Shown: positions 24,785-51,851, numbered from the stretch's first letter. The stretch is DNA of 64,000 bases from Calditrichota bacterium (GCA_020051775.1 JAGVQJ010000141.1:853-64852); one strand, 5' to 3'. The notes: generated from the letters alone by a model not told the origin. Numbers and translations are program-made.

Positions 24785-24795
24785 ACACATTTTCT

Positions 24796-24930
24796 GGATT
24801 CCGGGTCAAACCCGGAATGACAAAGTGTCGGGGTCGGGGACGACCCCGACTACGGACGCGACGAAGCGCGTCCCTGCAGGATTCCCGCTTTCGCCCCGAA
24901 GGGGCGTCCCTTCGGGACGCGGGAATGACA
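24796..24930. repeat. Hairpin-dense block containing REP-like copies E2 and E3 plus two GC hairpins
   Basis: E2 at 24796-24822 is GGATTCCGGGT-caa-ACCCGGAATGACA. Two hairpins follow: GTCGGGGTCG-ggga-CGACCCCGAC and GGACGCG-acgaa-GCGCGTCC. E3 at 24879-24930 is GGATTCCCGC...GCGGGAATGACA with two nested hairpins. Confidence 0.65.
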
Positions 24931-25011
24931 CGACTGAATCCCGTATCCAGAATCCTGAATCCCATTATTCATAACCCGCTTATCACCCCCATACACATAA
25001 CTGAGGAACGC

Positions 25012-25593
25012 ATGAATACAGAAAAGCACATGCTGGAGATTCGCTGGCACGGGCGTGGAGGCCAGGGAGCGGTGACCGCTTCCAAAATGTTGGCCGAATC
25101 CGCCATGACGCTGGGGAAGTTCATCCAGGCTTTCCCTGAGTACGGCTCGGAGCGTCAGGGCGCTCCAGTTAAATCGTTCACCCGGATTTCCGACCAGAAA
25201 ATCAGGTATCATTCTCAGGTCAACACTCCGGATGTGGTGCTGGTCTTAGATCCCACGCTGCTGGGCGTAGTTGACGTTACTGAGGGCTTGGGAGAGGATG
25301 GCATCCTGATCATCAACACCCCGGCTCAGCCTGCTGAGATCCGCAAGCAGTTGAATCTGAAGGGTCGCAAGATCTTCACCGTAGACGCCACGGGGATCAG
25401 CCTGCGCCACCTGGGCAAATCCATTCCCAATACTCCCATGGTGGGAGCCATCGTGGGTATTACCAAAATGCTTTCAGCGCAAGCTGTGGCCGACGACTTC
25501 CGCGTCAAGTTCAAGGACAAGTTCCGGCCTGAGATCGTGGAAGGCAACGTCAAGTGCATCATGGACGCCACTACGGAGGTAAAATCAGAATGA
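25012..25593 (+). CDS. porG: 2-oxoacid (pyruvate/ketoisovalerate):ferredoxin oxidoreductase, gamma subunit
   Basis: Sequence LEIRWHGRGGQGAVTASKMLAESA. The ATG at 25012 is preceded by GAGGAA. The ORF-track 5' extension translates the hairpin region and is rejected. Confidence 0.85.
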   Translation: MNTEKHMLEIRWHGRGGQGAVTASKMLAESAMTLGKFIQAFPEYGSERQGAPVKSFTRISDQKIRYHSQVNTPDVVLVLDPTLLGVVDVTEGLGEDGILIINTPAQPAEIRKQLNLKGRKIFTVDATGISLRHLGKSIPNTPMVGAIVGITKMLSAQAVADDFRVKFKDKFRPEIVEGNVKCIMDATTEVKSE

Positions 25594-29184: not shown

Positions 29185-29210
29185 ATTCAGAATGGAGAAT
29201 GAAGAAGGGA

Positions 29211-29238
29211 AGCGATCCGCGGAGATCGCTTTTGTGTC
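29211..29238 (+). terminator. Rho-independent terminator after pgpA
   Basis: AGCGATC-cgcgga-GATCGCT is followed by TTTGTGTC; the REP-like fragment TGTCATTCCGG at 29247-29257 sits just downstream. Confidence 0.6.
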
Positions 29239-29993
29239 TCTATCCATGTCATTCCGGCAAGGGTTTTCCCAGAGGGACTACATTGTGGTAGCCCGCGCTC
29301 CGGAAACAGACTACGGCTGTTTAATCCCCTTAGGGATCCGATTGAATCAAACCCAACCGCAGCTCCTGAAACCATGCCTTCAACCCCCACTAAGCTTCAA
29401 TAATTAACATTTTACCAGGTTACCCCCGAAGCCCAGGTCAAGGTTTTTTTACTCGCCACTGAGGAAGGTTCCACAAAGAATGGCATAAAAAGGAAAAATT
29501 TCTTAATAGAAATTATATCTATGATCGCGATCGCAAAGAATTCCATTTATATCATCTGCCAATATCGCGACTATTTCTATTTGTATGACATGTGAACATG
29601 ATAGCATGGTTAACTTCATTATTATCATTAATATGAAAGAGTTCATAAAAAATAGTTCAATCAATGCTTTCATTATGGGATCCAACTTAGTACATTGAAC
29701 GTAGAATCACAAGAGCAAGAGCAAGTGAATACGGTACAAGCATTTAAACTGATGACCGGGCTATTTGAGAACCTAGACCTTCCCCGGTCTTCTTTGGCCA
29801 CCTTAAGCCACAATGCAATTCAGAGCGAACTTCCTGAGCATGGAAACAGCGATTTGAAAGATCTATCTGGCCAATTCCCAATCCGTATGAATATCTAACC
29901 GAACACACTTCTAGTAGCTGACTTCCGATCGTCTTGATAACTGTCTAAAAACAGTAAGCCAAAGAACGATAGTTGAATTAAATCGGAGTCAGC

Positions 29994-31823
29994 ATGAGAA
30001 TCACATTGACATCCCTCCTCTGCGCTCTCCTGGTCTGGGCTATCCAGGCCGACGCGCGCAATCTCTACGTAGCGATAAACGGCAACAACAACAATCCGGG
30101 TACCATTACTCAGCCTTGGAGAACGATCGGCTATGCCGTCAGCAGTGCCAGCGGTGTCCACTCGGGCGATACCATCGTCGTCCGTCAGGGCAATTACCCC
30201 GAAGAAGTTTTTCCCGAGGTCAGCGGAACTGCCACTCAGCCGATCATCCTGCGCCGGCTGAAGAACGAAACGGTCTCTCTCGACCCAGGTAAAATCCGCT
30301 TCGAAAGCGGTGTCAACCACTGGAAAATCTACGGCATGGTGATCAAGCACTCCAGCTCCAGCGGACTGGAAATTAACGGTACCCATGCTGCCAATTTCCT
30401 GACTGTCTTGAAGTGCACCTTCTCGCACAATGAGCAGGATGGGATTTACCTGAGCGGCAGCTTCGGTGGCATTCAAATTCGCAGCTGCGACATCCAATTC
30501 AATGGAGAAGTGAACGGCGTACCGCAGAACGAAGAAGGTCACGGGATTGTGATTTACGGGAGTTCCGGCCAGCTCATCGTTAAAAACAGCCTGATCGCCA
30601 ACAACTGGCACAAGGGAATTGCCTACGGATCCGACGTGACTCAGTATGATGGAGACAATTCCCAGATTGATTCCAACATGATCATCAACAATTACGAATC
30701 CGGCCTGGACTTCTCCCCGGACAACTCCTTCGTGCGTCACAACTACATCTCGCGCAACGGACAGCGCGATATCGAATCAGGCGAATGGGGAGATAAAGGC
30801 GTTATGGCAAAAGGCATCTGCTCCCACACCACCTTTGCCTTCAACGTCATCAAGTCCAGCGGCGGCATGGAACTCGCGCCTTTGGGGGACCAGTGCTACT
30901 ACTACAACAACACGCTCTACAAGGACATCTTCTACACTGCCGTACCTGGATCGCCCTATCAGTCAACGATTATGTTCTACGACAGCTATGATCCCAGCAG
31001 CGTGTTCCGCAACAATATCATTTGCAACATGCTGAGCCAGGAAGATCACCACTGGGCGATCATCGCTGAAGTCTACCAAGCGTATACCAGCCAAACCTGG
31101 AGTAATAACTTGTACTGGGCGCCTAATTCCAGCCAGCAGTCCCCCGACAACAAACCTTTTAAATTGTATGGCGCCCCGGGTCCCGGTGGTAATATGAAAA
31201 CCCTGGCCGAAGTGCAGGCTACCTGGCCCAACGCAGAGAACAACAGCATTTATGTAAATCCGAGCTTCATTTCCTCGCCGGATTCCAACTTCCAACTGCT
31301 GCCCAACAGCCCTGCCATTGATGCTGGTTACAACGTGGGATTCCCCTACGTAGGCCAGGCCCCGGACATCGGAGCCTACGAATTCAGCACCAGATCTGCC
31401 AATGTCGGCCATCCTTATGGAGGCCTCTTTGAAAATAGCGGGGCGGTGTTGAGATTGAGTGGTGTCGGCGCGGACGAGATGGACCTGTCCGTTGATCCCG
31501 CCACGGATGAGTTGACTTTCGACGCCGATAATGGCTCCGTGCCAAGTGACGCTCTGCCGGGAATGGTTACCCTTGCGCAGAACAATCCCAATCCCTTCAA
31601 TCCGACCACCAGCATCATCTTCAACCTTCCCAATGATGGTATGGTGAAACTAACCGTTTACTCGATCACCGGCCAATTTGTCAAGACCTTGGTCAACAGC
31701 CATCAAACTGCCGGCGCACATGAGGTGACATTCGACGGTTCCAACCTGGCCTCTGGCGTCTACCTCTACCGTTTGGAAGCCGACGGCTTATCACAAACCC
31801 AGAAGATGATGCTGACCAAGTAG
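29994..31823 (+). CDS. Secreted beta-helix protein with T9SS-type C-terminal sorting domain; paralog of 11980-13809
   Basis: It shares about 85% protein identity with the inverted copy. It has a signal peptide (ALLVWAIQADA) and the tail NPFNPTTSIIFNLPNDGMVKLTVYSITGQFVKTL...GVYLYRLEADG...KMMLTK. Confidence 0.8.
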   Translation: MRITLTSLLCALLVWAIQADARNLYVAINGNNNNPGTITQPWRTIGYAVSSASGVHSGDTIVVRQGNYPEEVFPEVSGTATQPIILRRLKNETVSLDPGKIRFESGVNHWKIYGMVIKHSSSSGLEINGTHAANFLTVLKCTFSHNEQDGIYLSGSFGGIQIRSCDIQFNGEVNGVPQNEEGHGIVIYGSSGQLIVKNSLIANNWHKGIAYGSDVTQYDGDNSQIDSNMIINNYESGLDFSPDNSFVRHNYISRNGQRDIESGEWGDKGVMAKGICSHTTFAFNVIKSSGGMELAPLGDQCYYYNNTLYKDIFYTAVPGSPYQSTIMFYDSYDPSSVFRNNIICNMLSQEDHHWAIIAEVYQAYTSQTWSNNLYWAPNSSQQSPDNKPFKLYGAPGPGGNMKTLAEVQATWPNAENNSIYVNPSFISSPDSNFQLLPNSPAIDAGYNVGFPYVGQAPDIGAYEFSTRSANVGHPYGGLFENSGAVLRLSGVGADEMDLSVDPATDELTFDADNGSVPSDALPGMVTLAQNNPNPFNPTTSIIFNLPNDGMVKLTVYSITGQFVKTLVNSHQTAGAHEVTFDGSNLASGVYLYRLEADGLSQTQKMMLTK

Positions 31824-38947: not shown

Positions 38948-41035
38948 TTGGAGACCCAGGCGCAGTACATCCCCGGAGTGGGGCCGCGCCGCGCCCGCGA
39001 ACTGGAGAAGGTCGGCGTCTTCACTCTGGAAGGTCTGCTTTACTACCTGCCTCGGCGTTATCTGGATCGTTCGTTGGTCGTGCCCATCGCCGACCTCGAA
39101 CTGACCGAACGCGAAGTAACAGTGGTGGGGAAGGTGACCAGTTTCCAGGTCATCGGTGGAGGACCCAACAGCCGCCGGTTCGAATTGAATGTTTCCGATG
39201 GGACCGGCGTCTTGTGCGCGGTCTGGTTCGGCGGTGTGCCCTTCTGGAGCAAGGCGTTTGAGCGCGGACAGACGGTGGCTTTCAGCGGCAAAGTTCGCTT
39301 GTTTCGAGACAGGGTGCAGATGACGCACCCGGCCGTGGATTTCCTGACGGAGGACGAACGCCGCGATCTTAAAGGCAAAACCGGCCGCATCATCTCGCTG
39401 TATTCTTCCGGCGATCCTTTAACGCGTGTAGGCTTGGATAGCGCCGGGTTCCGCCGGCTGATCGCTGATTCCATCCTGCTGGCCAAGGGGAAGATTCCGG
39501 AAACACTCCCTCCGGAATTGATCCGTAAACACGACCTCGTCAGGCGCGAACAAGCGCTGTTCCAGGTGCATTTCCCGGAAGACTTCGATCAAGTCGCCAA
39601 GGCGCTGCGGCGGTTGAAGTTCGAGGAGATCTTTCTCCTACAACTCTCTCTGGCGCTGCGCGAACATCGGCGCAAGACCCGCGACAAGGGAATCGCCTTT
39701 CCTCACCCCGGGACGTTGACACGGCAGGCTTTAAAGCAGTTCCCCTTCGAACTGACTAAGGGGCAGCTTCAGGTCTTGACCGATATTCGGCAGGATATGG
39801 AAGCCGAATATCCCATGAACCGGTTACTGCAAGGGGACGTGGGTGCAGGCAAAACCGCCGTAGTGATGATCGCTCTGGCGATAGCCGTGGAAGGCGGCTA
39901 CCAGGGCGCCGTCATGGCGCCGACGGAAGTCCTGGCGGAGCAGCACTTCCGCACCATGGAGACGTTCTTTGACAAGTTAGGCATACGCACGACACTCCTG
40001 TTGGGAGGGTTGACGGCCGCCGTGCGCCGTTCCCGCCTGGAGGAGATTGCTTCCGGGAAAGCTCAGGTGGTCATCGGCACACATGCCTTGATCCAGGAGG
40101 GCGTTGAATTCCACAAGCTGGGTTTGGTGGTCATTGACGAGCAGCACCGTTTTGGAGTAGCGCAGAGGCTGGGATTGCGCCGCAAGGGCAAAACTCCCGA
40201 CGTGCTGGTGCTGACCGCCACGCCCATCCCCCGATCGCTGGCGCTGACCATGTACGGCGATCTGGACGTTTCACTGTTAAAAGAACGACCGCACAACCGC
40301 AAACCGATCCAGACCAAAATCTATGGCGGTAAAAGGCGCGAGGAGCTCTTTGAAAAAATCCGACTGGAAATGAGCAAGGGGCGGCAGGCGTTCATCGTCT
40401 ACCCGTTGGTGGAAGAATCGGAGAAATTGGACTTGCAGGCGGCGGTGAAAGCTCACGGCGAACTGAGTGCCGGGCCGTTTAAGAATTTCAAGTTGGGATT
40501 GCTGCACGGGCGCATGACCACCGAAGAAAAAGACCGGGTGATGAAGGCCTTCATCGCGCACGAGTATGATCTGCTGGTATCCACGACGGTCATCGAACTG
40601 GGTATTGACGTGCCCAACGCCACGGTGATGGCGGTCATGGGAGCGCAACGCTTCGGGCTGTCAGCGCTGCACCAACTGCGGGGCCGAGTGGGGCGCGGCG
40701 AACATCGCGGCGTCTGCGTCCTGGTGGTGGACCCGCCCATGACCAATGAAGCTCGCGACCGCCTGTCCGTGCTGGAACGCACCGAAGACGGCTTCATCAT
40801 CGCGGATGAGGATCTGCGCATTCGCGGCGGCGGGGAATTCTTCGGCACGCGGCAGTCCGGCGCGCCGGACTTCAAGATCGCCGATCCGGTGGAAGACCGC
40901 GAACTCTTAGAGGTCGCCCGATTCGAGGCCTTTGCCTGGGTCGCCCACGACCCGGATCTAAAAGCCTATCTGCCTCTGCAAGCCTTCTTCGAGCGAGCCT
41001 ATGGGCCGAAGATGGAGCTGATGGACGTGGGGTGA
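38948..41035 (+). CDS. recG: ATP-dependent DNA helicase RecG
   Basis: It has a wedge/OB N-terminus (LPRRYLDRS), helicase motifs (GDVGAGKTAV, VVIDEQHRFGV, LTATPIPRSL, LHGRM, QLRGRVGRG) and a RecG C-terminus. There is no in-frame ATG downstream of the preceding gene's stop. The start is provisionally the TTG at 38948; the ORF-track start at 38759 would overlap the previous gene by 128 nt. Confidence 0.85.
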   Translation: METQAQYIPGVGPRRARELEKVGVFTLEGLLYYLPRRYLDRSLVVPIADLELTEREVTVVGKVTSFQVIGGGPNSRRFELNVSDGTGVLCAVWFGGVPFWSKAFERGQTVAFSGKVRLFRDRVQMTHPAVDFLTEDERRDLKGKTGRIISLYSSGDPLTRVGLDSAGFRRLIADSILLAKGKIPETLPPELIRKHDLVRREQALFQVHFPEDFDQVAKALRRLKFEEIFLLQLSLALREHRRKTRDKGIAFPHPGTLTRQALKQFPFELTKGQLQVLTDIRQDMEAEYPMNRLLQGDVGAGKTAVVMIALAIAVEGGYQGAVMAPTEVLAEQHFRTMETFFDKLGIRTTLLLGGLTAAVRRSRLEEIASGKAQVVIGTHALIQEGVEFHKLGLVVIDEQHRFGVAQRLGLRRKGKTPDVLVLTATPIPRSLALTMYGDLDVSLLKERPHNRKPIQTKIYGGKRREELFEKIRLEMSKGRQAFIVYPLVEESEKLDLQAAVKAHGELSAGPFKNFKLGLLHGRMTTEEKDRVMKAFIAHEYDLLVSTTVIELGIDVPNATVMAVMGAQRFGLSALHQLRGRVGRGEHRGVCVLVVDPPMTNEARDRLSVLERTEDGFIIADEDLRIRGGGEFFGTRQSGAPDFKIADPVEDRELLEVARFEAFAWVAHDPDLKAYLPLQAFFERAYGPKMELMDVG

Positions 41036-41041
41036 AAGAAG

Positions 41042-41069
41042 TTATGAATTATGAGTTATGAGTTATGAA
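41042..41069. repeat. Left copy of a perfect 28-bp terminal inverted repeat (TTATGAATTATGAGTTATGAGTTATGAA)
   Basis: It is exactly the reverse complement of 42953-42980. It consists of four tandem heptamers, TTATGAA/TTATGAG, and starts 6 bp after the recG stop. Confidence 0.9.
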
Positions 41070-41346
41070 AACAATTGTCATCGCTGCACTATTCGGCACG
41101 TAGGGGTCGGGTTTGCCCCGAACCATTGATCCCCCCCTTCCCCCCTTGACAAGGGGGGTGACTGCAGGGTGAGGAAATCGTTGGATTACGCTTCGCTAAT
41201 CCAACCTACTTTACTGAATCACGCAGATTTCACTGATTACGCTGATTATTTACTCTTGTCTGAATCACAGATTCACGCAGATTAAGCAGATTGCGCGGAT
41301 TTTCATCTCCGAAGGGGATGAAAATCGAGCGCTACCGGCACGGATT

Positions 41347-42450
41347 GTGGGACAATTGAATTCAATCAATAGAATGAAGGAGAAGAAGATGCCAACTCCG
41401 CAAGAAAAGCAAATTCTAATCAATATTCAGAAAGATCTCGAGACTCTCGCATTGTATGACGATGGAAAAATGACTCGAAAGGATTTGGCACCTGAGTTAG
41501 AATTTTCATATGTTTCAATTTATATCCAACGATCCTTGGCAATATACAGAAAATTAAAAGATGCACCTCTTGAGTGCTTAGTTGAACAATCATTAAAGCA
41601 AGTTCAACAAAGAGTAGCTCAAGCGGCTGGTAGATATAAGGAGCTAGCAGAGTTTTCAATCGCTAAATATCCCGACAATGTAATGCAAAAGAGAAATAAC
41701 ATAATTCAAGCAATTGTGTCTGAATATTTTGAAGACATAAAGATTCTGCAACCTATAATTGATCTTCTTGTACCAATTGATTCCGAAATAATCAAAATCA
41801 CTAAGGAACAAAAAAAATCTTTGAAATCAATTGAAACAGAGAGATTAAATATTAAGAGTAAATCAGAAGAATTACAGAAAGAAATTGAATTGACTCTGAG
41901 TAACCTACAAAAGGAGAGTAACGAAGCATTGATGGCGGTACGCAGTATTGCTGGTGAGGCTGGAGTTTCTCACCATGCACAAATTTTTGCTCAACAAGCG
42001 AATCAGCATAAAAAGTACGCAAATATTTGGTTGAGTATTTCAGTGGCGGTACTTGTCCTTGCCGTATTTGCAATATCTTGGATTACGAAAACATACATAG
42101 AGGAAATAAAAGATCTAGATGAAATAATTAAGGTACTTCCAATCACAATATCTAGATTAGTCATGGTGACGATTTCTCTATATGCAGTATTGTGGAGCAC
42201 AAAGAATTATAATGCGCATCGACACAATGAAGTGATTAATCGCCATAGGCAAAATGCCTTAAGTACGTTTAAATCATTCGTAGAGGCGGCGAAAGATGAC
42301 CCAGCAACAAAGAATACAATTTTAATACAAGCTACTCAGTGTATTTTTTCTGTGCAAAGGTGTGGTTATTTAAAAGGCGATAGTGATTCAATGATGCCAA
42401 ATAATCTAATTAATATTCCATTGCCTGCATCTCCAAAATTAAAAGACTAA
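41347..42450 (+). CDS. Hypothetical protein: long coiled-coil N-terminal region followed by a two-TM helical hairpin and a short C-terminal domain (SLATT-like architecture)
   Basis: The ORF is AT-rich. Residues 1 to about 215 are K/E/Q-rich helical. The TM helices are IWLSISVAVLVLAVFAISWI and LVMVTISLYAVLWSTKNY. The C-terminus NAHRHNEVINRHRQNALSTFKSFVEAAKDD matches no known family that I recognise. Confidence 0.6.
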   Translation: MGQLNSINRMKEKKMPTPQEKQILINIQKDLETLALYDDGKMTRKDLAPELEFSYVSIYIQRSLAIYRKLKDAPLECLVEQSLKQVQQRVAQAAGRYKELAEFSIAKYPDNVMQKRNNIIQAIVSEYFEDIKILQPIIDLLVPIDSEIIKITKEQKKSLKSIETERLNIKSKSEELQKEIELTLSNLQKESNEALMAVRSIAGEAGVSHHAQIFAQQANQHKKYANIWLSISVAVLVLAVFAISWITKTYIEEIKDLDEIIKVLPITISRLVMVTISLYAVLWSTKNYNAHRHNEVINRHRQNALSTFKSFVEAAKDDPATKNTILIQATQCIFSVQRCGYLKGDSDSMMPNNLINIPLPASPKLKD

Positions 42451-42511
42451 ATACTGTGATTTTTCTTGTCTTTCAATCCGTCTCCGCGGTCGTGCAGGTT
42501 GGCGGGGATCT

Positions 42512-42536
42512 CATTCCGGGGGTTTGATACCCCCGG
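42512..42536. repeat. REP-like palindromic element copy E5
   Basis: CATTCCGGGGG-tttgata-CCCCCGG is followed by CCATTC. Confidence 0.5.
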
Positions 42537-42600
42537 CCATTCAAGCTCATCCACTGCGGGGTTGATGAAGCGTCCACTTTAGTGGACTGAAAGAAGGTAG

Positions 42601-42620
42601 CCCGGGAATTCATTCCCGGG
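42601..42620. repeat. REP-like palindromic element copy E6
   Basis: CCCGGGAAT-tc-ATTCCCGGG is a 9-bp palindrome sharing the GGAAT/ATTCC core. Confidence 0.5.
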
Positions 42621-42642
42621 ATTCGGTTGCGGTCATATTCCC

Positions 42643-42858
42643 ATGCAAGTCTTCAAAACTTTTCTCATCCTCGGGAGCGTGTTCGGCGCCATCGGCGCGG
42701 CGATGGCGTATGTCATCATGTATCATGAGTATCTGGATCATTATCCGGACAAAAAGCAACCGCGCAAGATTGCCTTGGAGGCGGCGATCATCACCTTCTT
42801 GATCTTCTTTGGTTTGTCCGCCGGGTTTGGATATTTCCTGGCGCGGCTGCAAGGATAG
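42643..42858 (+). CDS. Small hypothetical membrane protein (two TM helices, 71 aa)
   Basis: The helices are FLILGSVFGAIGAAMAYVIM and AAIITFLIFFGLSAGFGYFLA. Its codon usage is GC-rich, unlike the neighbouring AT-rich gene. There is no obvious RBS. Confidence 0.4.
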   Translation: MQVFKTFLILGSVFGAIGAAMAYVIMYHEYLDHYPDKKQPRKIALEAAIITFLIFFGLSAGFGYFLARLQG

Positions 42859-42952
42859 GAAGTGAAATTTAATTGGAACATGCGGCAAGCAGTGACGCTT
42901 GCTCTACTAAATTGGGTCGGGGCATGCCCGAACCCTACGAGATGTTTTTTGA

Positions 42953-42980
42953 TTCATAACTCATAACTCATAATTCATAA
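42953..42980. repeat. Right copy of the perfect 28-bp terminal inverted repeat
   Basis: TTCATAACTCATAACTCATAATTCATAA is the reverse complement of 41042-41069. It ends 6 bp before the parA start codon. Confidence 0.9.
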
Positions 42981-42986
42981 TTCCTA

Positions 42987-43751
42987 ATGTCTCGCATCAT
43001 CGCCATAGCCAACCAAAAGGGCGGGGTGGGCAAAACCACCACGGCCGTCAACCTGGCCTGCTTTTTAGCCGCCGCCGAGAAGAAGACTCTGCTGGTGGAT
43101 ATTGACCCGCAGGCCAACGCCACTTCCGGCATGGGTTTAGGCTCGGAGAAACGCGGCAAGACCATCTATGAGGTGCTGATCCAGGAGATGGACCCGCGTG
43201 AAGCCGTCCAGGACACCGATCTGGAATTCCTGAAGATCCTGCCGTCCGACGTCAAGTTGGTGGGCGCGGAGATCGAACTGGTGCCCATGATGAGCCGCGA
43301 GCAGATCTTGCGGCGCGCTCTGACGCCCCTGAAAGCGGAATACGATTACCTGATCATGGACTGCCCGCCGTCTTTGGGGCTGTTGACTCTGAACGCTCTG
43401 ACCTCCGCCGATTCCGTGTTGATCCCCATCCAGTGCGAATACTACGCGCTGGAAGGCATCACCCAGCTTCTGGGCACAGTGCGACTCGTGCAGAAGCATT
43501 TAAACAACGCCCTGGAGATTGAGGGCGTCCTGCTAACCATGTACGACAACCGTCTGAAACTATCCAAACAGGTGCGGACGGATGTGCAGGAATTTTTCCG
43601 CGAAAAAGTCTTTCGCAGCGTCATCACCCGCAACGTCAAACTTTCGGAGGCGCCGTCCTTCGGTCAACCCATCATCTTTTACGATATTGCCTCGCGCGGG
43701 GCGCAAAATTATCTTTCTTTGGCGCAGGAGATCATCAACAATGAACGGTAA
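42987..43751 (+). CDS. parA: Chromosome partitioning ATPase ParA/Soj
   Basis: It has the deviant Walker [22 protein letters not shown] and ParA motifs ([17 protein letters not shown]). Confidence 0.9.
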
Positions 43752-44646
43752 GGAAACCGGAAAAGAGAGCAAAGAGCTTCGCAAAGAGAGCCGCCTGGGA
43801 CGGGGTCTGGCAGCTCTACTACCCGAAGGGGCCGATTTGGGCGGACGTTCGCCCAAATACGCCGAAATCGAGGTGGATCTGGTGCATGCCAATCCGCAGC
43901 AGCCTCGAACCACGTTTGACGAGGAGGCCTTAAAAGACCTGTCCGATTCCATCCGCGCCAAGGGGGTGGTACAGCCCATCATCGTGCGGCGCGTAAACGG
44001 GGAGTACGAGCTGATCGCGGGAGAACGACGGCTGCGGGCTTCGCGCATGGCCGGATTAACCCGCATCCCCGCTTACATCGCCGACGTGGCCGACGGATCG
44101 GAGGCTCTGGAACTGGCCTTGATCGAAAACCTGCAACGTGAAGATCTGAACGCGCTGGAAATGGCTGAAGGCTTTCTGAAACTGGCACAGAACTACGGCT
44201 TGACGCAGGAGGAGATTTCCCACCGTGTGGGCAAGAGCCGCGCGGCTGTGGCCAACACCCTGCGCCTGCTGAACCTGGCTCCGCAGGTGCAGGAATCATT
44301 GCGCTCCGGACAGATTACCGCCGGGCATGCGCGAGCCATTTTGTCTTTCGATGACCGCGATCGCCAGACCACGCTTTGGAAACGTATCCTGAAGGACGGA
44401 CTGTCGGTGCGCAAGGCTGAGAGCCTGGCCCGGAAGATGACCGAACCCACGGCCAAGACGCACCACGTTCGCAAACGATCACCGCACGTCAGCCATGTAG
44501 AAGACCGCTTGCGCAACCTGCTGGGTACTCACGTGCGTCTGCACCACAAGCCCGGCAAGGGCGGCAGCATCGAAATCGAGTACTACACCGACGAGGATTT
44601 GGAGCGGATCTTAGAGCTGTTCGAGCTCATGGAGGGGAGCGGGTGA
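43741..44646 (+). CDS. parB: Chromosome partitioning protein ParB/Spo0J
   Basis: It has the ParB box [12 protein letters not shown] and an HTH ([22 protein letters not shown]). The start is the ATG at 43741, an 11-nt overlap with parA; the ORF-track 5' extension is rejected. Confidence 0.9.
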
Positions 44647-45566
44647 GCGGGGGGTTAAAACGTGCCTTTGGCAGAATAATCTTCTCCCGCCCGATCTTCG
44701 AGATCTTCCAGAAGGCCGGAATTCACATTACCCGGAGGCACTTTTACAGCCCCATTCCGGATACGAGGGATCTGGCGATACGGCGGGATTTGTGGGAAGG
44801 CGAATACGACCTACCGGGAGTGGATTTAAATCCAGCCCGGCAACTGGAGATACTGGAATCCGTCATCCCAAAATATATAACCGAGTGTAATTTCCCCGAA
44901 GAGAAAACGGCCAATACTCACGAATATTACGTCAACAATGGATCATTCGGGCTGGTGTCGGCGGTGACGCTTCACGGCATGATCCGGCACTTTCAGCCTC
45001 GCACGATTATCGAAGTGGGGTCGGGATTTTCCACGCTGGTGTCGGCTCGTGCGGCGCTGATGAACAAAGCGGAAAGCCACCCGGTGAACCTTATCGCCGT
45101 CGAGCCATTTCCTTCAGCACAGCATAAAGCGGGGTTTCCGGGTTTAACCGAGCTGATTCCCCGTCGCGTCGAGGATTTGGGCGTTGGTTTCTTCGAGCGG
45201 TTGCAGAGCGGCGATATCCTGTTCATTGATTCCAGCCACGTCTTGAGGATCGGCGGGGACGTTGCGTTTCTATATCTTGAAGTCCTGCCACGCTTAAAAT
45301 CCGGCGTGGTGGTGCATATTCACGACATCCTCTGGCCGAGGCATTATGCGCGAGACATGGTCATCAACCAGCGAATGTTCTGGAACGAGCAGTATCTCCT
45401 GCAGGCGTTCCTGGCGTTCAATCATGATTTCGAAGTGCTCATGAGCGCCTCCTGGCTGCACGCGAAACACCCGGAAAAAGTGAAGGCAGTCATCCCTCCA
45501 CCGAAATCCAAACCGAAGCTTGAGAATTACGTCTCCAGCAGTTTTTGGATGAGGAGGGTAGGATGA
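44643..45566 (+). CDS. Class I SAM-dependent methyltransferase (TylF/MycF-like O-methyltransferase fold)
   Basis: Motif I is IIEVGSGFST and the post-motif is ILFIDSSH. The GTG start overlaps the parB stop. Confidence 0.7.
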   Translation: MSGGLKRAFGRIIFSRPIFEIFQKAGIHITRRHFYSPIPDTRDLAIRRDLWEGEYDLPGVDLNPARQLEILESVIPKYITECNFPEEKTANTHEYYVNNGSFGLVSAVTLHGMIRHFQPRTIIEVGSGFSTLVSARAALMNKAESHPVNLIAVEPFPSAQHKAGFPGLTELIPRRVEDLGVGFFERLQSGDILFIDSSHVLRIGGDVAFLYLEVLPRLKSGVVVHIHDILWPRHYARDMVINQRMFWNEQYLLQAFLAFNHDFEVLMSASWLHAKHPEKVKAVIPPPKSKPKLENYVSSSFWMRRVG

Positions 45567-48719: not shown

Positions 48720-51443
48720 ATGAACGAAATCCTTCGATTCCCACAAGAAATCCAGAAAGAAATCGAAGATCAGATTTCCGTTGAGTCATGGAAGAATAAA
48801 CCTGTCAAGCCGCTTGAATCTCCGGTCATGGCACTGCCACATACTGCAATCTACAAAATGCACCGGTATTATGCCCGCAGACCCTATAATGTATTTGATG
48901 AAATTATTCAACGATACACAAATCCTGGCGATTTAATTCTTGATCCTTTCTGTGGAGGCGGAGTAACCGTTGTGGAGGCCATGAAACTCCGGCGGCGGGT
49001 TATTGGCGTTGACTTGAATCCTCTGGCCACATGGATTACTCAAGTTGAAGTTGAGTCGGTAGATCTGAACGAATTGGACCAAGCTTTTACAATCTGGTTG
49101 GAGGCCGTACAAAAACAAATCAATCCGCTCTTCGAGGCAACCTGCGGCGCTTGTGGAAAGATAGGATCGGCGGAGTGGTTTGAGTGGTCAAATGTTGTCC
49201 GCTGCCCAAGTTGCGGGAAATCCAATATCTTAGGCAAATGCCAAAAGATTAGAGGAGGCCATTACCTCTGTACCAATAAGCGTTGCCAATCACTGATTGA
49301 AGCAGACAAGTGTGAACGACAACCGGATGAAATGCTCACCGCGTTGGTGAACTGCCCGCATTGCGGCGAAAGAAATATCCGCGATATTAATGCTGATGAC
49401 GCGGATCGAGTTAAACAGATTAAATCAAATTTTAATAGAATCGTAAAACAAGAAAAATTGAGTATCCCCGACGACGACTTCCCTGATATGAATTCGGTGC
49501 GGGAAAACAATCTCTTTGGCAAAGGCTTTCTGAAATTTAGAGATTACTTCACAACGAGGCATCTTCTCGCCATAGCAAGAATGAAATCATCCCTGCGTGA
49601 GTTGAAATCCGATAAGAGAACCATCAATTCTCTATATAATATATTTTCTGCGACTCTAAGATTTACAAACAAAATGGTCATTAGGAGCGAAGCGTGGCGT
49701 GGTGATAATCCACTCGAATGGCCAGGGCACATTTATTGGCCTCCTTATACATATCTCGAAGCAAACCCGGTTAAACCGCTTCTAAAACGGTATAAAGCTC
49801 AAGTTGCCGGTAAATTGGAGCAAAAGGAGAAAATAGGGGATTTCTGCCGATTCCCCAAGATTTATCGGCCCTGGGAGGATATGCAGAGCAGCGCCACCTG
49901 CTGGATCATCAACCAGTCCAGTCATGATTTACCCATACCTGATAAATCGGTGGATGCTGTGATTACCGATCCACCCTTTGGCGGCAATGTCCAATATGCC
50001 GAATTATCAGATTTTTACCTGGTGTGGCTAAAGGACTTTTTGAAGTTGCCCGATGGCGCCGGCAAAGAACAGGAGGCTATAGAAACTCGCCATCAAGGTT
50101 TTGATGGCGCGAAGGATCGTGATTTTTACGAGAATATGCTCTTTAAAATTTTCAAGGAATGCCGACGAGTAATCAAACCTGACGGCTGGATGGCGCTAAC
50201 TTTCCACAATCGTGATATCGGTGTTTGGATGTCCATGAATCGCGCAGCGATTAGGGCCGGTTTCAGGTTACCACCTGCATCAGAGTCTCTAAATCGCGGG
50301 ATGATTTACCAGCCTCCCATCCAAAATTACACCCAGACAATTCATCAAAAGCGCACTGGCTCTATGCTCGGTGATTTTGTCCTATCATTCCGACCGGTAG
50401 ATGAACCGGTGTACCTGGGACCGGTTCTGCAAGAATTACCCACGGAAGAGGAAAAAGGCATATATGCTAAAGCAGATGAGATCATCCGGTTTCATGGCGG
50501 CGCCGATGAAACGACCCTGATGACCGGGTTGCTACCCTATTTACAAGAAAAAGGGTTGCTGGCGCGATTAGCCAGATTCGATCTGCGTTCTCTGTTGAGT
50601 GGCGGACAATTTGTATTCCGCAAAGACCAGAAGAAGTGGTATGCGGCTGACATGATCGAACCATCTGGCGGCATTAAACCCATTGACGTTATTCAGGCTG
50701 AACATCTCGTGCAGGAGCTGATCTTTGAGTACCTTTTGGAACACAAACATGCCAGTAATGATGATCTATTACGGTTGGTTTATACCGCACTGGTTAATGC
50801 TCATAGACCGCAGATTGATGCTATTGAGAAGGTTCTGGGCAAGTACTGCAAGAGAATCAATGTGAAAGGTCAGAAAAGAGAACAATATCAATGGACAACA
50901 GGGGTGCCATCCCCTTTGAAAGTACAACAAGAAAAACAAAAACAGACAGACTTGATGATGGGCGAGAGTGTCTCTCCGACACACAATGGCATTATTTTTA
51001 CCATCGCACAAGAAGCGATTACAAAAGGATATTTCGCGCATGTCGGCGCGACGGAACAACGAAAAAACGGATCTCTGGATCACGTCAGTCTCAAACTCAC
51101 TTATCATGAATTGGGAGTGCCTAAAAAGGCGTTTGATATCATTCGTCAAATTGACTTGCTGTTACTGAAGGAATATTCAGTAATTGCAGCCATTGAAGTT
51201 GTAACCAGCCTCAGTACGCTTAACAAGGCGGTTAATGACCGTTTCAGGAATCTACTTAGCGTAATTCCTAACTTAAATTTCAGGTTGTACATCGTCGTCA
51301 ACGATGAAGATTTCATGGCGGCACGCGCAGAAATACATTCACCGGTAAATCAACGTGAAGGTTTGGCAGACCGCATAAGACTCCTCAAGGTGTCTGAAGT
51401 AACCGAGGGAAAAATCACAACGTATTGGCCTTTCCAAGAGTAG
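48720..51443 (+). CDS. DUF1156/COG1743-family adenine-specific DNA methyltransferase with Zn-ribbon; solitary
   Basis: The N-terminal motif HRYYARRP matches the HxWWARRP signature. Motif I is DPFCGGGVTVVEA...VIGVDLNP. The Zn-ribbons are CGACGK...CPSCGK and CTNKRC...CPHCGE. Catalytic motif IV is ITDPPFGGNVQY. The protein is 907 aa. The gene is AT-richer than its flanks. Its ATG follows the upstream TGA by 1 nt. Confidence 0.8.
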   Translation: MNEILRFPQEIQKEIEDQISVESWKNKPVKPLESPVMALPHTAIYKMHRYYARRPYNVFDEIIQRYTNPGDLILDPFCGGGVTVVEAMKLRRRVIGVDLNPLATWITQVEVESVDLNELDQAFTIWLEAVQKQINPLFEATCGACGKIGSAEWFEWSNVVRCPSCGKSNILGKCQKIRGGHYLCTNKRCQSLIEADKCERQPDEMLTALVNCPHCGERNIRDINADDADRVKQIKSNFNRIVKQEKLSIPDDDFPDMNSVRENNLFGKGFLKFRDYFTTRHLLAIARMKSSLRELKSDKRTINSLYNIFSATLRFTNKMVIRSEAWRGDNPLEWPGHIYWPPYTYLEANPVKPLLKRYKAQVAGKLEQKEKIGDFCRFPKIYRPWEDMQSSATCWIINQSSHDLPIPDKSVDAVITDPPFGGNVQYAELSDFYLVWLKDFLKLPDGAGKEQEAIETRHQGFDGAKDRDFYENMLFKIFKECRRVIKPDGWMALTFHNRDIGVWMSMNRAAIRAGFRLPPASESLNRGMIYQPPIQNYTQTIHQKRTGSMLGDFVLSFRPVDEPVYLGPVLQELPTEEEKGIYAKADEIIRFHGGADETTLMTGLLPYLQEKGLLARLARFDLRSLLSGGQFVFRKDQKKWYAADMIEPSGGIKPIDVIQAEHLVQELIFEYLLEHKHASNDDLLRLVYTALVNAHRPQIDAIEKVLGKYCKRINVKGQKREQYQWTTGVPSPLKVQQEKQKQTDLMMGESVSPTHNGIIFTIAQEAITKGYFAHVGATEQRKNGSLDHVSLKLTYHELGVPKKAFDIIRQIDLLLLKEYSVIAAIEVVTSLSTLNKAVNDRFRNLLSVIPNLNFRLYIVVNDEDFMAARAEIHSPVNQREGLADRIRLLKVSEVTEGKITTYWPFQE

Positions 51444-51452
51444 TACATTCCC

Positions 51453-51851
51453 ATGACCTGGCGCAGAGTCTTTTTCGACAATTACAAAGCCAAGCTGGCG
51501 CTTTTTCTGATGGCCGCCTTCATGTGGTTTTTTGTGGTTTCCAGCCGAGATTATGTGGAAACTGTGAAAATCCCCGTGCGGGTCATCAACTTGCCCCAGA
51601 ACCGCGTGCTGCTGCAGCCCTTACCCACTCAAGCCCAGGTACGTTTCCGGGGTAAAGGCACCAGCTTGTTGCTCCTGGGGCTTTTCGGCGATCCGCACCT
51701 GGATGTAGACCTTTCACATCCCAACTATGTGTACTATTTCCGCCCGGGACTCGATCAGGTGGATTGGAGCCCGGCCATTGAAGTGCAGCCCTTGGACATT
51801 CTGTTGCCGGATACGATTTTTGTGCAGATGGAAGAACGACACAAGCCATAG
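51453..51851 (+). CDS. YbbR-like (CdaR-like) domain protein, short single-domain form
   Basis: It has an N-terminal TM helix (KLALFLMAAFMWFFVV) and then one YbbR-like beta-rich repeat. The call is weak. Confidence 0.45.
   Translation: MTWRRVFFDNYKAKLALFLMAAFMWFFVVSSRDYVETVKIPVRVINLPQNRVLLQPLPTQAQVRFRGKGTSLLLLGLFGDPHLDVDLSHPNYVYYFRPGLDQVDWSPAIEVQPLDILLPDTIFVQMEERHKP

What the first reader, a model, noticed from the sequence alone, without database searches (positions are those of the whole stretch)
41042..42980. 1.94-kb AT-rich cassette bounded by perfect 28-bp inverted repeats, inserted exactly between recG and parA
Directly visible: 41042-41069 (TTATGAATTATGAGTTATGAGTTATGAA) and 42953-42980 are exact reverse complements, 28 of 28. 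The left copy starts 6 bp after the recG stop and the right copy ends 6 bp before the parA ATG. Each repeat is four tandem heptamers. Between them lie an AT-rich 367-aa gene, REP-like palindromes, a GC-rich 71-aa 2TM ORF, and similar subterminal hairpin sequences in direct orientation: GGGGTCGGGTTTGCCCCGAACC at 41103 and GGGTCGGGGCATGCCCGAACC at 42914. There is no transposase or integrase inside. The geometry is that of a non-autonomous mobile element or cassette delivered by a trans-acting recombinase, and its cargo is unrecognised. This is the strongest candidate in the window for an undescribed accessory module.
Basis: seen in the sequence. Interest (0 to 1): 0.75.

Follow-up and report, generated by a model that had tools for sequence, protein, structure and literature searches.

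The report
Gene island inside split heptamer foldback
A small island of foreign genes fills a gap between two housekeeping genes that varies among related bacteria, and the perfect inverted repeats at its edges are copies of a common seven-base tandem repeat seen at gene borders in many bacteria and phages, not demonstrably the private ends of a new transposon.

Summary
41042-41069 and 42953-42980 are exact reverse complements, each made of 4 TTATGAR heptamers. They lie 6 nt after the recG stop and 6 nt before the parA ATG.

The block is a genuine accessory island. Relatives with about 70% RecG identity keep DUF4139-recG and parAB, but the gap between them differs:
- 72 bp and empty in one relative;
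- 1.25-3.3 kb with unrelated cargo in four others (HicAB, a methylase-Mrr enzyme, PDDEXK_3, and AT-rich unknown genes).

The 28-mer is not a private transposon end.
- TTATGAR arrays occur in about 130 viral contigs, against 36 for a shuffled control. The exact 28-mer occurs in more than 120 metagenome contigs.
- The arrays are always intergenic, and they hug stop codons.
- Closely spaced pairs always have one polarity, (TTATGAR)n-loop-(YTCATAA)n: 24 cases against 0.
- One relative with different cargo has similar inverted arrays at the same two borders.
- There is no target duplication, no recombinase in 64 kb, and no other copy of the composite end.

Best reading: an intergenic foldback, plus GTAG-type REP hairpins, whose interior now holds 1.9 kb of accessory DNA. 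A REPIN-like element that carries cargo remains a live rival. The cargo is a 353-aa all-helical membrane protein of an unannotated family.

The parts
38948..41035 (+). recG, the conserved left border gene of the variable spot
   Evidence: Pfam RecG_wedge, DEAD, Helicase_C and RecG_dom3_C. P0081 is 100% identical over 695 aa. DUF4139-recG synteny holds in all relatives.
41036..41041 (+). AAGAAG, a degenerate outer unit of the left arm between the recG stop and the array
   Evidence: The inverted repeat extends through it, 33 nt at 94% (I1). Relatives have AGGAAA or AGGGGA followed by GGATGAA at the same place.
41042..41069 (+). Left arm: 4 TTATGAR heptamers (R pattern A-G-G-A), reading TTATGAR just after a stop codon
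   Evidence: This is the typical position: arrays in this orientation lie a median of 7 nt after the upstream stop codon in other contigs.
41099..41125 (+). GTAG-tagged REP-like hairpin, left copy
   Evidence: Unpaired CGTAG followed by an imperfect stem, -7.3 kcal/mol. It is inverted relative to 42913-42939 (I5). A related copy lies at 24824-24866.
41129..41163 (+). C-run/G-run hairpin motif (ccccccttgacaagggggg), a dispersed intergenic motif
   Evidence: 94% identical over 35 nt to L330 8910-8943 in that relative's island. Weak match to the whalefall-1 RNA family, below its threshold.
41180..41205 (+). Hairpin gttggattacgcttcgctaatccaac
   Evidence: Read directly from the sequence.
41213..41301 (+). 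Two direct copies of a 9-mer-based repeat (CACGCAGATT / ACGCTGATT). The same family lies downstream of recG in all relatives.
   Evidence: (D1). Alignment with L328-L331. Complete foldbacks of this family separate the cargo genes in L329.
41298..41326 (+). 13-bp-stem hairpin just upstream of the AT-rich DNA
   Evidence: I17.
41389..42450 (+). AT-rich cargo gene of 353 aa (367 aa if the GTG at 41347 is used). It is an all-helical protein with a transmembrane hairpin and belongs to an unannotated family.
   Evidence: GC 34.7%. 77 homologues, all at or below 35% identity and about 340 aa, with the invariant motif AHRHN..HRQNA. Pfam gives only DUF6161 at E=1.7e-4, below its cutoff. Nothing in PADLOC, NCBIfam or PHROGs. 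AlphaFold2 pLDDT 85, with no PDB fold match.
42496..42623 (+). Two related hairpin motifs of the cccgggaat...attcccggg type
   Evidence: D2. Weak Acido-Lenti-1 match at 42586-42620 (-), 25 bits against a gathering score of 37.
42643..42858 (+). 71-aa two-transmembrane protein gene with native-like GC
   Evidence: 163 cluster representatives at E<=1e-3, mostly 65-80 aa with full-length matches. GC 52%. Absent from the relatives' islands.
42913..42939 (-). GTAG-tagged REP-like hairpin, right copy, inverted
   Evidence: (I5), (-7.3 kcal/mol, z = -2.4).
42953..42980 (-). Right arm: 4 heptamers reading YTCATAA towards parA. A fifth, degenerate unit reaches 42987.
42987..44646 (+). parA (42987-43751) and parB (43735-44646), the conserved right border genes
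   Evidence: Pfam. 77-85% and 72-79% amino-acid identity in relatives.

Best explanation
The 1.94-kb block is the current filling of a variable spot between recG and parAB that recurs across this lineage. The organism is an uncultured bacterium whose closest RecG relatives are labelled candidate division LCP-89 or Zixibacteria.

The two 28-bp repeats are two short tandem arrays of the heptamer TTATGAR (TAAYTCA on the other strand). This is a dispersed intergenic repeat of the STRR / TAACTGA / TTTTGAA kind. In other bacteria and phages, a pair of such arrays forms a foldback that fills the spacer and has fixed polarity: stop codon, (TTATGAR)n, loop, (YTCATAA)n, start codon.

Here the arms still sit 6 nt from the recG stop and 6 nt from the parA start. 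The interior of the foldback has grown to 1.9 kb. It holds REP-type hairpins, 9-mer repeats, a native-GC 71-aa membrane-protein gene, and a recently acquired gene at 35% GC.

Shown: the island status, the dispersed nature and positional rules of the arrays, and the recurrence of the geometry.

Inferred: the accessory DNA entered, or was exchanged, inside a pre-existing foldback/REP cluster. This could have happened by recombination through the conserved flanking genes or by insertion into the palindromic spacer.

Also inferred: the arms persist because they act at the gene borders. Each arm carries a stop codon in all three frames. In a read-through transcript, the arms could pair into a 28-33-bp stem. 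That stem would bring the recG stop next to the parA start and could serve as an RNA processing or insulating site.
For: 1. Hotspot. Relatives with about 70% RecG and 77-85% ParA identity keep DUF4139-recG and parAB. The spacer between them is:
- 72 bp and empty in L333/L334;
- 1.25 kb with 267-aa and 59-aa genes in L331;
- 1.26 kb with a 313-aa ORF at 37% GC in L371;
- 3.1 kb with PDDEXK_3, a 238-aa gene and a methylase-Mrr gene in L329;
- 3.3 kb with HicBA, a 255-aa gene and a weak Y1_Tnp gene in L330.
The cargoes are unrelated to one another.

2. Dispersed repeat. Since 10 of the 11 x6 arrays in the whole collection fall inside those 120, the total is about 130, against 36 for the shuffled TATTGAR x3. 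The exact 28-mer is in more than 120 metagenome contigs with GC from 0.27 to 0.69.

3. Positional rules.
- None of 328 unique arrays lies inside a gene.
- TTATGAR-sense arrays lie a median of 7 nt after a stop codon, and 40 of 67 are within 15 nt.
- Pairs less than 200 nt apart are (+,-) in 24 cases and (-,+) in 0 (p = 1e-7).
- 15 of the 21 with called neighbours lie between co-directional genes, with arms 0-22 nt from the stop and the start.

4. Same borders, other cargo. L331 has AGGAAA-GGATGAA-TTATGAA-GGATGAA-TTATGAA right after the recG TGA, and TTCATAA-TTCATCC-TTCATCC-TTCATAA-TTCCCT just before the parA ATG. By my own hand alignment of the sequences shown, these are about 83% complementary over 35 nt. 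The empty junction and L329 keep a single AGGRRA-GGATGAA after the stop.

5. The inner left part of the 'cassette' (the 9-mer repeats and the C/G-run hairpin) is shared with relatives that carry other cargo.

6. The arrays are identical, but the adjacent hairpins are only 85% matched and the spacers between them (29 nt against 13 nt) do not align. The inverted structure is therefore older than the unameliorated 35%-GC gene.

7. The literature describes near-identical heptamer arrays next to start codons, with a proposed but unproven regulatory role (PMC4679880; bioRxiv 10.1101/2022.06.06.494920). It also describes GTAG-tagged REPs that occur in inverted pairs (PMC3733652).
Against: - The one empty junction has no array, only single heptamer-like units.
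- L328, the closest relative of L331 at 82% identity, has a different sequence after recG. The arrays are therefore patchy, and the relatives are about equidistant at roughly 73%. Inheritance of the arms with the site is not shown.
- Degenerate units flank arrays everywhere. The similar 'linkers' in the window and in L331 are thus weak evidence of orthology.
- Elsewhere, (+,-) pairs 0.25-5 kb apart enclose low-GC accessory genes. One pair brackets a Y1 transposase together with its REPs. That also fits arms that travel with their content.
- The RNA-level function is untested. Enrichment over a shuffled heptamer is only about 3.6-fold at x3 and absent at x6.
Confidence: 0.5

Rival explanations
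1. Cargo-bearing REPIN/MITE-like element. The inverted arrays, together with the inverted GTAG REPs, are the ends of a non-autonomous unit. A Y1 (RAYT/IS200-like) enzyme encoded elsewhere mobilises it in trans. Short array-loop-array foldbacks are the empty form, and this locus is a form that carries genes.
For: - Short foldbacks have strict polarity, 24 against 0, as expected for elements with defined ends.
- Five unrelated contigs (GC 0.40-0.69) share the same imperfect left arm opposite the exact 28-mer, which suggests common descent.
- The 28-mer is multi-copy in some metagenome populations, for example several Ga0193752 and Ga0209629 contigs.
- In L257 a Y1_Tnp gene (E = 5e-26) is bracketed by inverted GTAG-REP units and, outermost, by 42-nt TTATGAR arrays identical at 40 of 42 positions.
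- (+,-) pairs 0.25-5 kb apart enclose DNA of lower GC than (-,+) pairs do (p = 0.001, or 0.009 with one value per contig). They hold Dam, 23S_rRNA_IVP and small phage ORFs.
- The empty junction lacks arrays.
- Y1 enzymes leave no target duplication (established knowledge of IS200/IS605).
Against: - No second copy of the composite end was found in the window or in about 370 fetched loci.
- The window has no Y1 gene.
- At gene-scale distances the (+,-) arrangement is not over-represented: 13 against 17.
- The arms abut the stop and start codons and leave none of the 72-nt spacer.
- The subterminal parts have diverged.
- Only 1 of about 240 array loci carries a Y1 gene.
- REPINs that carry kilobase cargo are not known.
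Confidence: 0.25
2. Two independent microsatellite-like arrays. Each arose by slippage at a gene border, and their identity and inverted orientation are coincidental.
For: - Heptamer repeats are the commonest long simple repeats in prokaryotes (Mrazek 2007, as summarised in PMC4679880).
- Copy number and the A/G pattern vary between near-identical contigs (L082 against L017, and L238).
- A shuffled heptamer is as common as TTATGAR at x6.
- A random A/G pattern of 4 units would match with a probability of about 1 in 16. None of about 17 bystander 4-unit arrays, by my reading, was A-G-G-A.
Against: - These are the only two TTATGAR arrays in 64 kb. They are 1.9 kb apart, inverted and identical at 28 of 28 positions.
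- Inverted REP hairpins lie just inside both arrays.
- The arms co-vary in L331, with GGATGAA opposite TTCATCC.
- Short pairs have fixed polarity, 24 against 0.
Confidence: 0.08
3. Integron-type cassette array without an integrase (CALIN). The palindromic repeats would act as attC sites.
For: - All 11 called cargo genes in four of the five loci with cargo (window, L329, L330, L331) are co-oriented with the flanking genes. The uncalled 313-aa ORF in the fifth (L371) is too.
- In L329, palindromes of about 90 bp with conserved ends (..GGAAC.. / ..GGTTC..) and variable centres separate the cargo units.
Against: - There is no intI in the window.
- GTTATGA does not fit the GTTRRRY core.
- The arms are tandem arrays, which attC sites are not.
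- Here the repeats bracket the whole island in inverted orientation. They do not follow each cassette in direct orientation.
Confidence: 0.04
4. Assembly artefact. The segment between the two 28-mers would be mis-joined or inverted in a metagenome assembly.
For: The source is a 65-kb metagenome contig. Exact inverted repeats can cause inversion ambiguity.
Against: - The AT-rich DNA is not adjacent to the 28-mers. About 280 bp and 480 bp of native-like sequence lie between them.
- 28 bp is shorter than the usual final assembly k-mer.
- Independent assemblies of relatives show the same kind of filled spacer.
Confidence: 0.03
5. Protein operator sites for partition or replication: ParB/parS-like sites, iterons or DnaA boxes.
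For: The position is directly upstream of parA, and the units are short repeats.
Against: - There is no parS-like site in the region. The best match in the window has 2 mismatches, lies at 18980, and is at chance level.
- The same arrays occur next to unrelated genes in phages and many bacteria.
- Relatives have parA without arrays.
Confidence: 0.02

Closest known systems
Intergenic heptanucleotide direct repeats: TAACTGA repeats of marine Beggiatoaceae, Cyanobacteria and Bacteroidetes (MacGregor 2015, PMC4679880); TTTTGAA/TTCAAAA repeats near start codons in Nostoc PCC 7120 (bioRxiv 10.1101/2022.06.06.494920); cyanobacterial STRR (my own knowledge)
   Same: - Short tandem arrays of 2-6 units of a 7-nt unit.
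- Strictly intergenic, often within a few nucleotides of a start codon, and scattered across distant phyla.
- The unit differs by one base: TAACTCA against TAACTGA, and TTATGAA against TTTTGAA.
- The right arm here sits 6 nt before the parA ATG, in the same 'forward' orientation that MacGregor describes.
   Different: - MacGregor reports essentially only direct repeats, with a single indirect one.
- Here, and in 24 other loci, two arrays form an inverted pair of fixed polarity.
- The commonest single-array position I found is just after a stop codon.
- The pair brackets genes.
GTAG-tagged REP elements, REPINs and their RAYT transposases (PMC3733652, PMC3116915, PMC3337134)
   Same: - The subterminal hairpins are imperfect palindromes of about 20-25 bp with an unpaired GTAG at one end.
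- They occur as an inverted pair, and a related copy lies elsewhere in the window.
- A relative's island (L330) holds a weak Y1_Tnp gene inside a REP cluster.
- L257 shows a Y1 gene flanked by inverted REPs and by the heptamer arrays.
   Different: - REPINs are about 100 bp and carry no genes. Here the inverted REPs are 1.8 kb apart.
- Only 3 REP copies are visible, so high copy number is not shown.
- No RAYT is present in the window.
Integration hotspots between core genes
   Same: Conserved flanking genes, an empty state, several unrelated small cargoes (toxin-antitoxin, restriction-modification, unknown genes) and deviant GC.
   Different: The borders of the spot carry inverted copies of a dispersed repeat that abut the stop and start codons. 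I know of no such description for hotspots.
Integron gene cassettes / CALIN
   Same: Co-oriented small cargo genes, separated or bounded by imperfect palindromes, with no recombinase inside.
   Different: No integrase, no attC core sites, and repeats that are tandem arrays in inverted orientation around the whole block.
Intercistronic stem-loops that process or insulate polycistronic mRNA: phage T7 RNase III sites, and 23S rRNA intervening sequences whose terminal stem encloses an ORF. This analogy comes from my own knowledge and was not tested.
   Same: A long perfect stem whose two strands lie next to the end of one gene and the start of the next. Two of the (+,-) pairs found elsewhere enclose 23S_rRNA_IVP-family genes.
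   Different: There is no evidence of transcription, pairing or cleavage here. A 1.9-kb loop is far larger than in the known sites.

Membership tests
TIR-bounded non-autonomous transposon (MITE-like, cargo-carrying) | Terminal inverted repeats | tested here: met
   28 of 28 positions, extending to 33 nt at 94%.
TIR-bounded non-autonomous transposon (MITE-like, cargo-carrying) | Target-site duplication flanking the repeats | tested here: not met
   The flanks are TGAAAGAAG and TTCCTAATG. They are part of the inverted repeat, not direct repeats. This is not decisive against HUH/Y1-type elements, which make no duplication.
TIR-bounded non-autonomous transposon (MITE-like, cargo-carrying) | Further copies with the same ends at other sites | tested here: inconclusive
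   No other copy of the 28-mer exists in the window. The composite end (array plus GTAG hairpin) is absent from about 370 fetched loci. The rest of the source genome could not be searched, because it is not among the genome-contig hits.
TIR-bounded non-autonomous transposon (MITE-like, cargo-carrying) | An empty site in relatives that lacks the repeats and is otherwise intact | tested here: inconclusive
   The 72-bp junction in L333 has no arrays but keeps AGGGGA-GGATGAA after the stop. L331 has arrays around a different cargo. The relatives are only about 73% identical in protein.
Intergenic heptanucleotide tandem repeats (STRR / TAACTGA / TTTTGAA type) | At least 3 head-to-tail copies of a 7-nt unit | tested here: met
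   Tandem Repeats Finder gives period 7, with 4.0 and 5.3 copies.
Intergenic heptanucleotide tandem repeats (STRR / TAACTGA / TTTTGAA type) | Intergenic position close to gene borders | tested here: met
   6 nt from the recG stop and 6 nt from the parA ATG. None of 328 arrays elsewhere lies inside a gene.
Intergenic heptanucleotide tandem repeats (STRR / TAACTGA / TTTTGAA type) | The same unit recurs at many loci and in distant organisms, more often than related heptamers | tested here: met
   About 130 viral contigs against 36 for a shuffled unit at x3. More than 120 metagenome contigs carry the exact 28-mer. At x6 there is no excess, 11 against 9.
GTAG-tagged REP / REPIN | An imperfect palindrome of 20-40 bp with an unpaired GTAG at one end | tested here: met
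   Folds of 41095-41130, of 42908-42943 (-) and of 24824-24866 (-) leave CGTAG unpaired 5' of the stem. Energies are -7.3, -7.3 and -13.7 kcal/mol. The definition is taken from PMC3733652.
GTAG-tagged REP / REPIN | High copy number in the genome | tested here: inconclusive
   3 copies in 64 kb. The rest of the genome is not available.
GTAG-tagged REP / REPIN | A cognate RAYT (Y1 transposase) in the genome | not testable with these tools
   None in the window. A weak Y1_Tnp gene lies in relative L330.
Integron cassette array / CALIN | attC sites with R'' (RYYYAAC) and R' (GTTRRRY) cores after each cassette | tested here: not met
   GTTATGA does not fit GTTRRRY. The repeats are inverted around the block rather than direct after each gene. 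The attC covariance model was not available.
Integron cassette array / CALIN | An integron integrase nearby (may be absent in a CALIN) | tested here: not met
   No Phage_integrase hit among about 50 ORFs of the window.
Genomic island in a hotspot between core genes | Conserved flanking genes with variable content, including an empty state, in relatives | tested here: met
   Six different states of the recG-parA spacer.
Genomic island in a hotspot between core genes | Composition that deviates from the host | tested here: met
   34.7% GC in the cargo gene against 56-60% in the flanking genes.

The most novel reading that the evidence does not exclude
Inverted heptamer-array foldbacks, (TTATGAR)n-loop-(YTCATAA)n, would be a cross-phylum, REPIN-like scaffold whose interior accepts or carries genes. 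That would make them a recombinase-less gene-cassette system of bacteria and phages, mobilised in trans by Y1/RAYT-type enzymes or exchanged through the arms. The recG-parA island would be one loaded example. The others seen here carry Dam, 23S_rRNA_IVP genes, small phage ORFs and a RAYT.
Probability: 0.2. Interest if true: 0.8.

Novelty: new variant of a known kind. Interest (0 to 1): 0.45.

Why it matters
As it stands, this is a well-documented small accessory island in a hotspot next to the partition genes of an uncultured lineage. Its cargo is an unannotated membrane protein. That is useful but ordinary.

The part worth following is the border architecture. A dispersed heptamer repeat, so far described only as direct repeats near start codons, forms inverted pairs of strict polarity that fill intergenic spacers. 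In a dozen cases these pairs enclose low-GC accessory genes.

If the arms are functional RNA stems, they would be a simple and widespread way to insulate inserted genes from their neighbours' expression. If they are mobile ends, they would define a new class of gene-carrying REPIN-like elements.

Either outcome would give a function to heptamer repeats. Their role has been an open question since they were first described in cyanobacteria.

Tried and rejected
- Exact look-ups of ParA and of the cargo protein (both the window translation and P0001) found no contig on record. The source contig and close strains therefore could not be retrieved.
- The genome-contig scan with RecG found nothing closer than 50% identity (candidate division KSB1), and none of the 80 loci had parA next to recG. 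The useful relatives came from the protein database instead.
- The cargo homologues P0012, P0034 and P0019 sit in other variable regions next to toxin-antitoxin and IS genes. No heptamer arrays lie nearby, so cargo and arrays are not linked.
- Cargo function stayed unresolved. PADLOC, NCBIfam and PHROGs gave nothing, Pfam gave only DUF6161 below its threshold, and the AlphaFold2 model matched only long-helix proteins at E > 0.3.
- A larger nested palindrome was rejected. Beyond the array and the REP block, the left flank and the reverse-complemented right flank share only 8-mers. The ACGGATTG/CAATCCGT pair around the AT-rich DNA is at chance level by my own rough estimate.
- Rfam found no family at gathering score in the region.
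- The promoter and terminator scan was at background level.
- No parS site was found.
- A crude test of start-codon proximity was uninformative, because random positions inside genes score high. It was replaced by greedy gene calls.
- A tblastn search for Y1 transposases in all loci found only L257 and one RecG locus.


Full report
**Observation**

The sequence is as described.
- TTATGAATTATGAGTTATGAGTTATGAA lies at 41042-41069 on the + strand and at 42953-42980 on the - strand. The two copies are identical at 28 of 28 positions. No match is expected in shuffles, and the 64-kb window has no third copy.
- Both copies are period-7 tandem arrays.
- The complementarity continues imperfectly through the 6-nt linkers, giving 33 nt at 94%.
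- recG ends at 41035 and parA starts at 42987.
- GC content falls to about 35% only over the large gene. The rest of the block is 41-54% GC, and the flanking genes are 56-60%.

Two details need correcting.
- The subterminal hairpins are inverted rather than direct once their unpaired CGTAG tag is counted: 27 nt at 85% complementarity (I5).
- The large gene most probably starts at ATG 41389 and encodes 353 aa. An AAGGAG lies 8 nt upstream, and the public record gives the same length.

**Is it an insertion?**

The nearest RecG proteins in the protein database are 65-75% identical. The few that carry a name are labelled Zixibacteria or candidate division LCP-89. Contigs for six of them keep DUF4139-recG on one side, and five of these also reach parA-parB on the other. 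The gap between recG and parA is different in each:

| Locus | Gap | Content |
|---|---|---|
| L333/L334 | 72 bp | empty |
| L331 | 1.25 kb | 267-aa and 59-aa genes |
| L371 | 1.26 kb | uncalled 313-aa ORF at 37% GC, between genes at 64-68% |
| L329 | 3.1 kb | PDDEXK_3, a 238-aa gene, a methylase-Mrr fusion |
| L330 | 3.3 kb | HicB, HicA, a 255-aa gene, a 253-aa weak Y1_Tnp gene inside a cluster of REP-like repeats |

In the sixth, L328, the contig ends about 450 nt after recG, so its gap cannot be read.

None of these cargoes is related to the window's two genes or to the others. All are co-oriented with recG and parA. The recG-parA spacer is therefore a genuine variable spot, and the window's block is one of its fillings.

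**What are the 28-bp repeats?**

They are not private to this block.
Ten of the 11 contigs in the whole collection that carry six or more units fall within those 120, so the total is about 130. A composition-matched shuffled heptamer gives 36.
- At six units there is no excess, 11 against 9. The enriched class is the short array of 3-5 units.
- The exact 28-mer hit more than 120 JGI metagenome contigs with GC from 0.27 to 0.69, mostly as a discrete four-unit array in unrelated contexts.

The literature knows this kind of object.
- TAACTGA direct repeats, one base away from the TAACTCA read on the other strand here, lie just upstream of start codons in Beggiatoaceae, Cyanobacteria and Bacteroidetes (PMC4679880).
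- TTTTGAA/TTCAAAA repeats lie near start codons in Nostoc (bioRxiv 10.1101/2022.06.06.494920).
- In both cases a regulatory role is proposed but not established.

**Rules the arrays follow elsewhere**

I worked with about 240 fetched loci and simple greedy gene calls.
- None of 328 unique arrays lies inside a gene.
- Arrays whose sense strand reads TTATGAR sit a median of 7 nt after the stop codon of the upstream gene. Between convergent genes, each array reads TTATGAR in the sense of the gene it adjoins.
- When two arrays lie less than 200 nt apart, they are always arranged 5'-(TTATGAR)n-loop-(YTCATAA)n-3'. That is 24 cases against 0 for the opposite arrangement, p = 1e-7.
- 15 of the 21 pairs with called neighbours lie between co-directional genes, with their arms 0-22 nt from the stop and the start.

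This is exactly the geometry at recG and parA, except that the 'loop' there is 1.88 kb.

At distances of 0.25-5 kb the (+,-) arrangement is not over-represented. Even so, the DNA it encloses has lower GC than its flanks in 9 of 11 cases, against 4 of 12 for (-,+) pairs. The Mann-Whitney p is 0.001, or 0.009 with one value per contig. The enclosed genes are:
- a Dam methylase;
- two 23S_rRNA_IVP four-helix genes;
- small phage ORFs;
- in L257, a Y1 transposase with three GTAG-REP units on each side in inverted orientation, with the heptamer arrays outermost and identical at 40 of 42 positions.

**The borders in relatives**

L331 carries unrelated cargo but has inverted arrays at both borders.
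- AGGAAA-GGATGAA-TTATGAA-GGATGAA-TTATGAA lies directly after the recG TGA.
- TTCATAA-TTCATCC-TTCATCC-TTCATAA-TTCCCT lies directly before the parA ATG.
- By my own hand alignment of those sequences, the arms are about 83% complementary over 35 nt. Its variant unit GGATGAA is matched by TTCATCC on the other arm, just as TTATGAG is matched by CTCATAA in the window.

The other relatives differ.
- The empty junction and L329 keep a single AGGRRA-GGATGAA after the stop.
- L330 has other heptamers at both borders.
- L328 is the closest relative of L331, at 82% identity over the two shared proteins. It has a different sequence after recG.
- All relatives are roughly equidistant from the window, at about 73%.

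The arrays are therefore patchy across the group. Inheritance with the site and independent gain cannot be told apart.

**What else is inside**

- The left inner part of the block consists of repeat families that the relatives also carry downstream of recG: 9-mer arrays of the CACGCAGATT type and a C-run/G-run hairpin.
- The subterminal hairpins fit the published definition of GTAG-tagged REPs, which often occur as inverted pairs (PMC3733652). A third copy lies in another intergenic region of the window, at 24824-24866.
- The 71-aa ORF is a real small membrane-protein family, with 163 cluster representatives.
- The AT-rich gene belongs to an unannotated family of about 340-aa proteins. An N-terminal helical domain is followed by a long helix and a transmembrane hairpin (the latter read from the sequence, not run through a predictor), and then an invariant AHRHN..HRQNA motif. 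Its homologues sit in other variable regions next to toxin-antitoxin and IS genes. No database or fold search gives a function.

**Weighing the readings**

Against a young, specific transposon:
- There is no target duplication.
- No recombinase is present in 64 kb.
- The composite end has no second copy anywhere I could look.
- The arms touch the stop and start codons, so nothing of an older spacer remains.
- The arrays are identical, while the hairpins next to them are 85% matched and the spacers between array and hairpin (29 nt against 13 nt) do not align. The inverted structure is therefore older than the unameliorated gene.

For arms that belong to a unit with its content:
- The empty site lacks them.
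- Short foldbacks have fixed polarity.
- Five unrelated contigs share the same imperfect left arm.
- L257 shows a Y1 transposase bracketed by the arrays.

I therefore favour a split intergenic foldback in a hotspot, at about 0.5. A REPIN-like unit that carries cargo stays as the main rival, at about 0.25. Coincidence, an integron-type array, an assembly artefact and a partition operator are each unlikely, for the reasons given under the rival explanations.

**Mechanism**

Shown: the island status, the dispersed nature of the repeat, and its positional and polarity rules.

Inferred:
- The accessory DNA entered or was swapped inside the palindromic spacer, either by recombination through the conserved flanking genes or by insertion into the foldback.
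- The arms are kept because they work at the gene borders. Each arm has a stop codon in all three frames: TGA on one strand and TAA on the other. The TTATGAR strand also encodes overlapping AUGA start-stop motifs.
- In a read-through transcript, the arms could form a 28-33-bp stem that places the recG stop next to the parA start. Such a stem is long enough to be a double-strand RNase substrate.

None of this was testable here.

**Verdict**

The block is an accessory island with unknown cargo. Its inverted repeats are members of a known but poorly understood class of intergenic heptamer repeats, arranged in a way that has not been described, and a transposon origin is not demonstrated.

Noticed in passing
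window 44643-45566, compared with L330, L331, L333 and L371 downstream of parB: There is a second variable spot, between parB and the C69 peptidase gene. The window has a Methyltransf_24 gene there. L333 has nothing, L331 has a HicAB-like pair, L371 has FRG plus an AAA_15/21 ATPase plus a 180-aa gene, and L330 has an acetyltransferase.
   Followed up: partly
window 13703-14277 and 29545-30100: Two inverted repeat blocks, 139 nt at 77% and 94 nt at 79%, lie about 15-16 kb apart. They cover the 5' ends and upstream leaders of two paralogous beta-helix / Por_Secre_tail genes, 11980-13830 (-) and 29994-31823 (+). These long AT-rich leaders may hold a shared regulatory element.
   Followed up: partly
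window 29189-29240: A heptamer array (GAATGGA GAATGAA GAAGGGA) lies directly after the pgpA stop. It is followed by a G+C-rich hairpin and a T run. A very similar array follows recG in relative L328.
   Followed up: no
window 24785-25012: The spacer after the DUF433-AbiGi gene (23588-24784) holds the same families of motifs as the recG-parA island. These are a cccggaat-type hairpin, a strong GTAG-tagged REP at 24824-24866 (-) (-13.7 kcal/mol, z = -3.8), and degenerate heptamers, including one TTCATAAC unit, before the por ATG at 25013.
   Followed up: partly
L257 4329-5741 (termite-gut metagenome contig): A Y1_Tnp (RAYT-like) gene at 4713-5171 (-) has the same layers on each side in inverted order. 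From the inside out they are three GTAG-REP units with (GGGACGG)n-like runs, a cattgcgag...gcaatc hairpin, and 42-nt TTATGAR arrays identical at 40 of 42 positions. This is the best lead for an enzyme linked to these arrays.
   Followed up: partly
L242, L252, L259, L270, L277: Five unrelated contigs (GC 0.40-0.69) share the same imperfect left arm, TTATGAR TTATGAR TGATGAA TTATGAA TT, opposite the exact 28-mer. Their loops follow the host GC. Conserved mismatches of this kind suggest common descent or a constrained binding site.
   Followed up: no
L040 3122-4149 and L228 1397-1888: Inverted TTATGAR arrays bracket single 23S_rRNA_IVP (four-helix bundle, Avd-like) genes of lower GC than their flanks.
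   Followed up: partly
L329 8150-8250, 8675-8763 and 11125-11215: Foldbacks of about 90 bp are built from 9-mer units, (CACGGATnn)n-loop-(ATCCGTG)n, with conserved ends ..GGAACC / GGTTC.. and variable centres. They separate the cargo units of that relative's island in direct orientation, so the layout looks cassette-like.
   Followed up: partly
L330 10400-11380: A 253-aa gene with weak IS200-like Y1_Tnp similarity (E = 0.0017) is embedded in at least six copies of a REP-like repeat of about 25 nt (TGCAGGCAAGATGCCTGCACCACAA). It lies inside the recG-parA island of that relative.
   Followed up: no
window 48720-51851: A 907-aa N6_N4 DNA methylase gene and a 132-aa gene without a Pfam match lie between the aldolase and tsaD genes. 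Relative L333 has trkA directly after the aldolase gene. This is probably another small island.
   Followed up: no
window 20208-20651: A tRNA (20208-20280) and the large bacterial SRP RNA (20384-20651) lie upstream of dnaX. This is an ordinary arrangement.
   Followed up: yes
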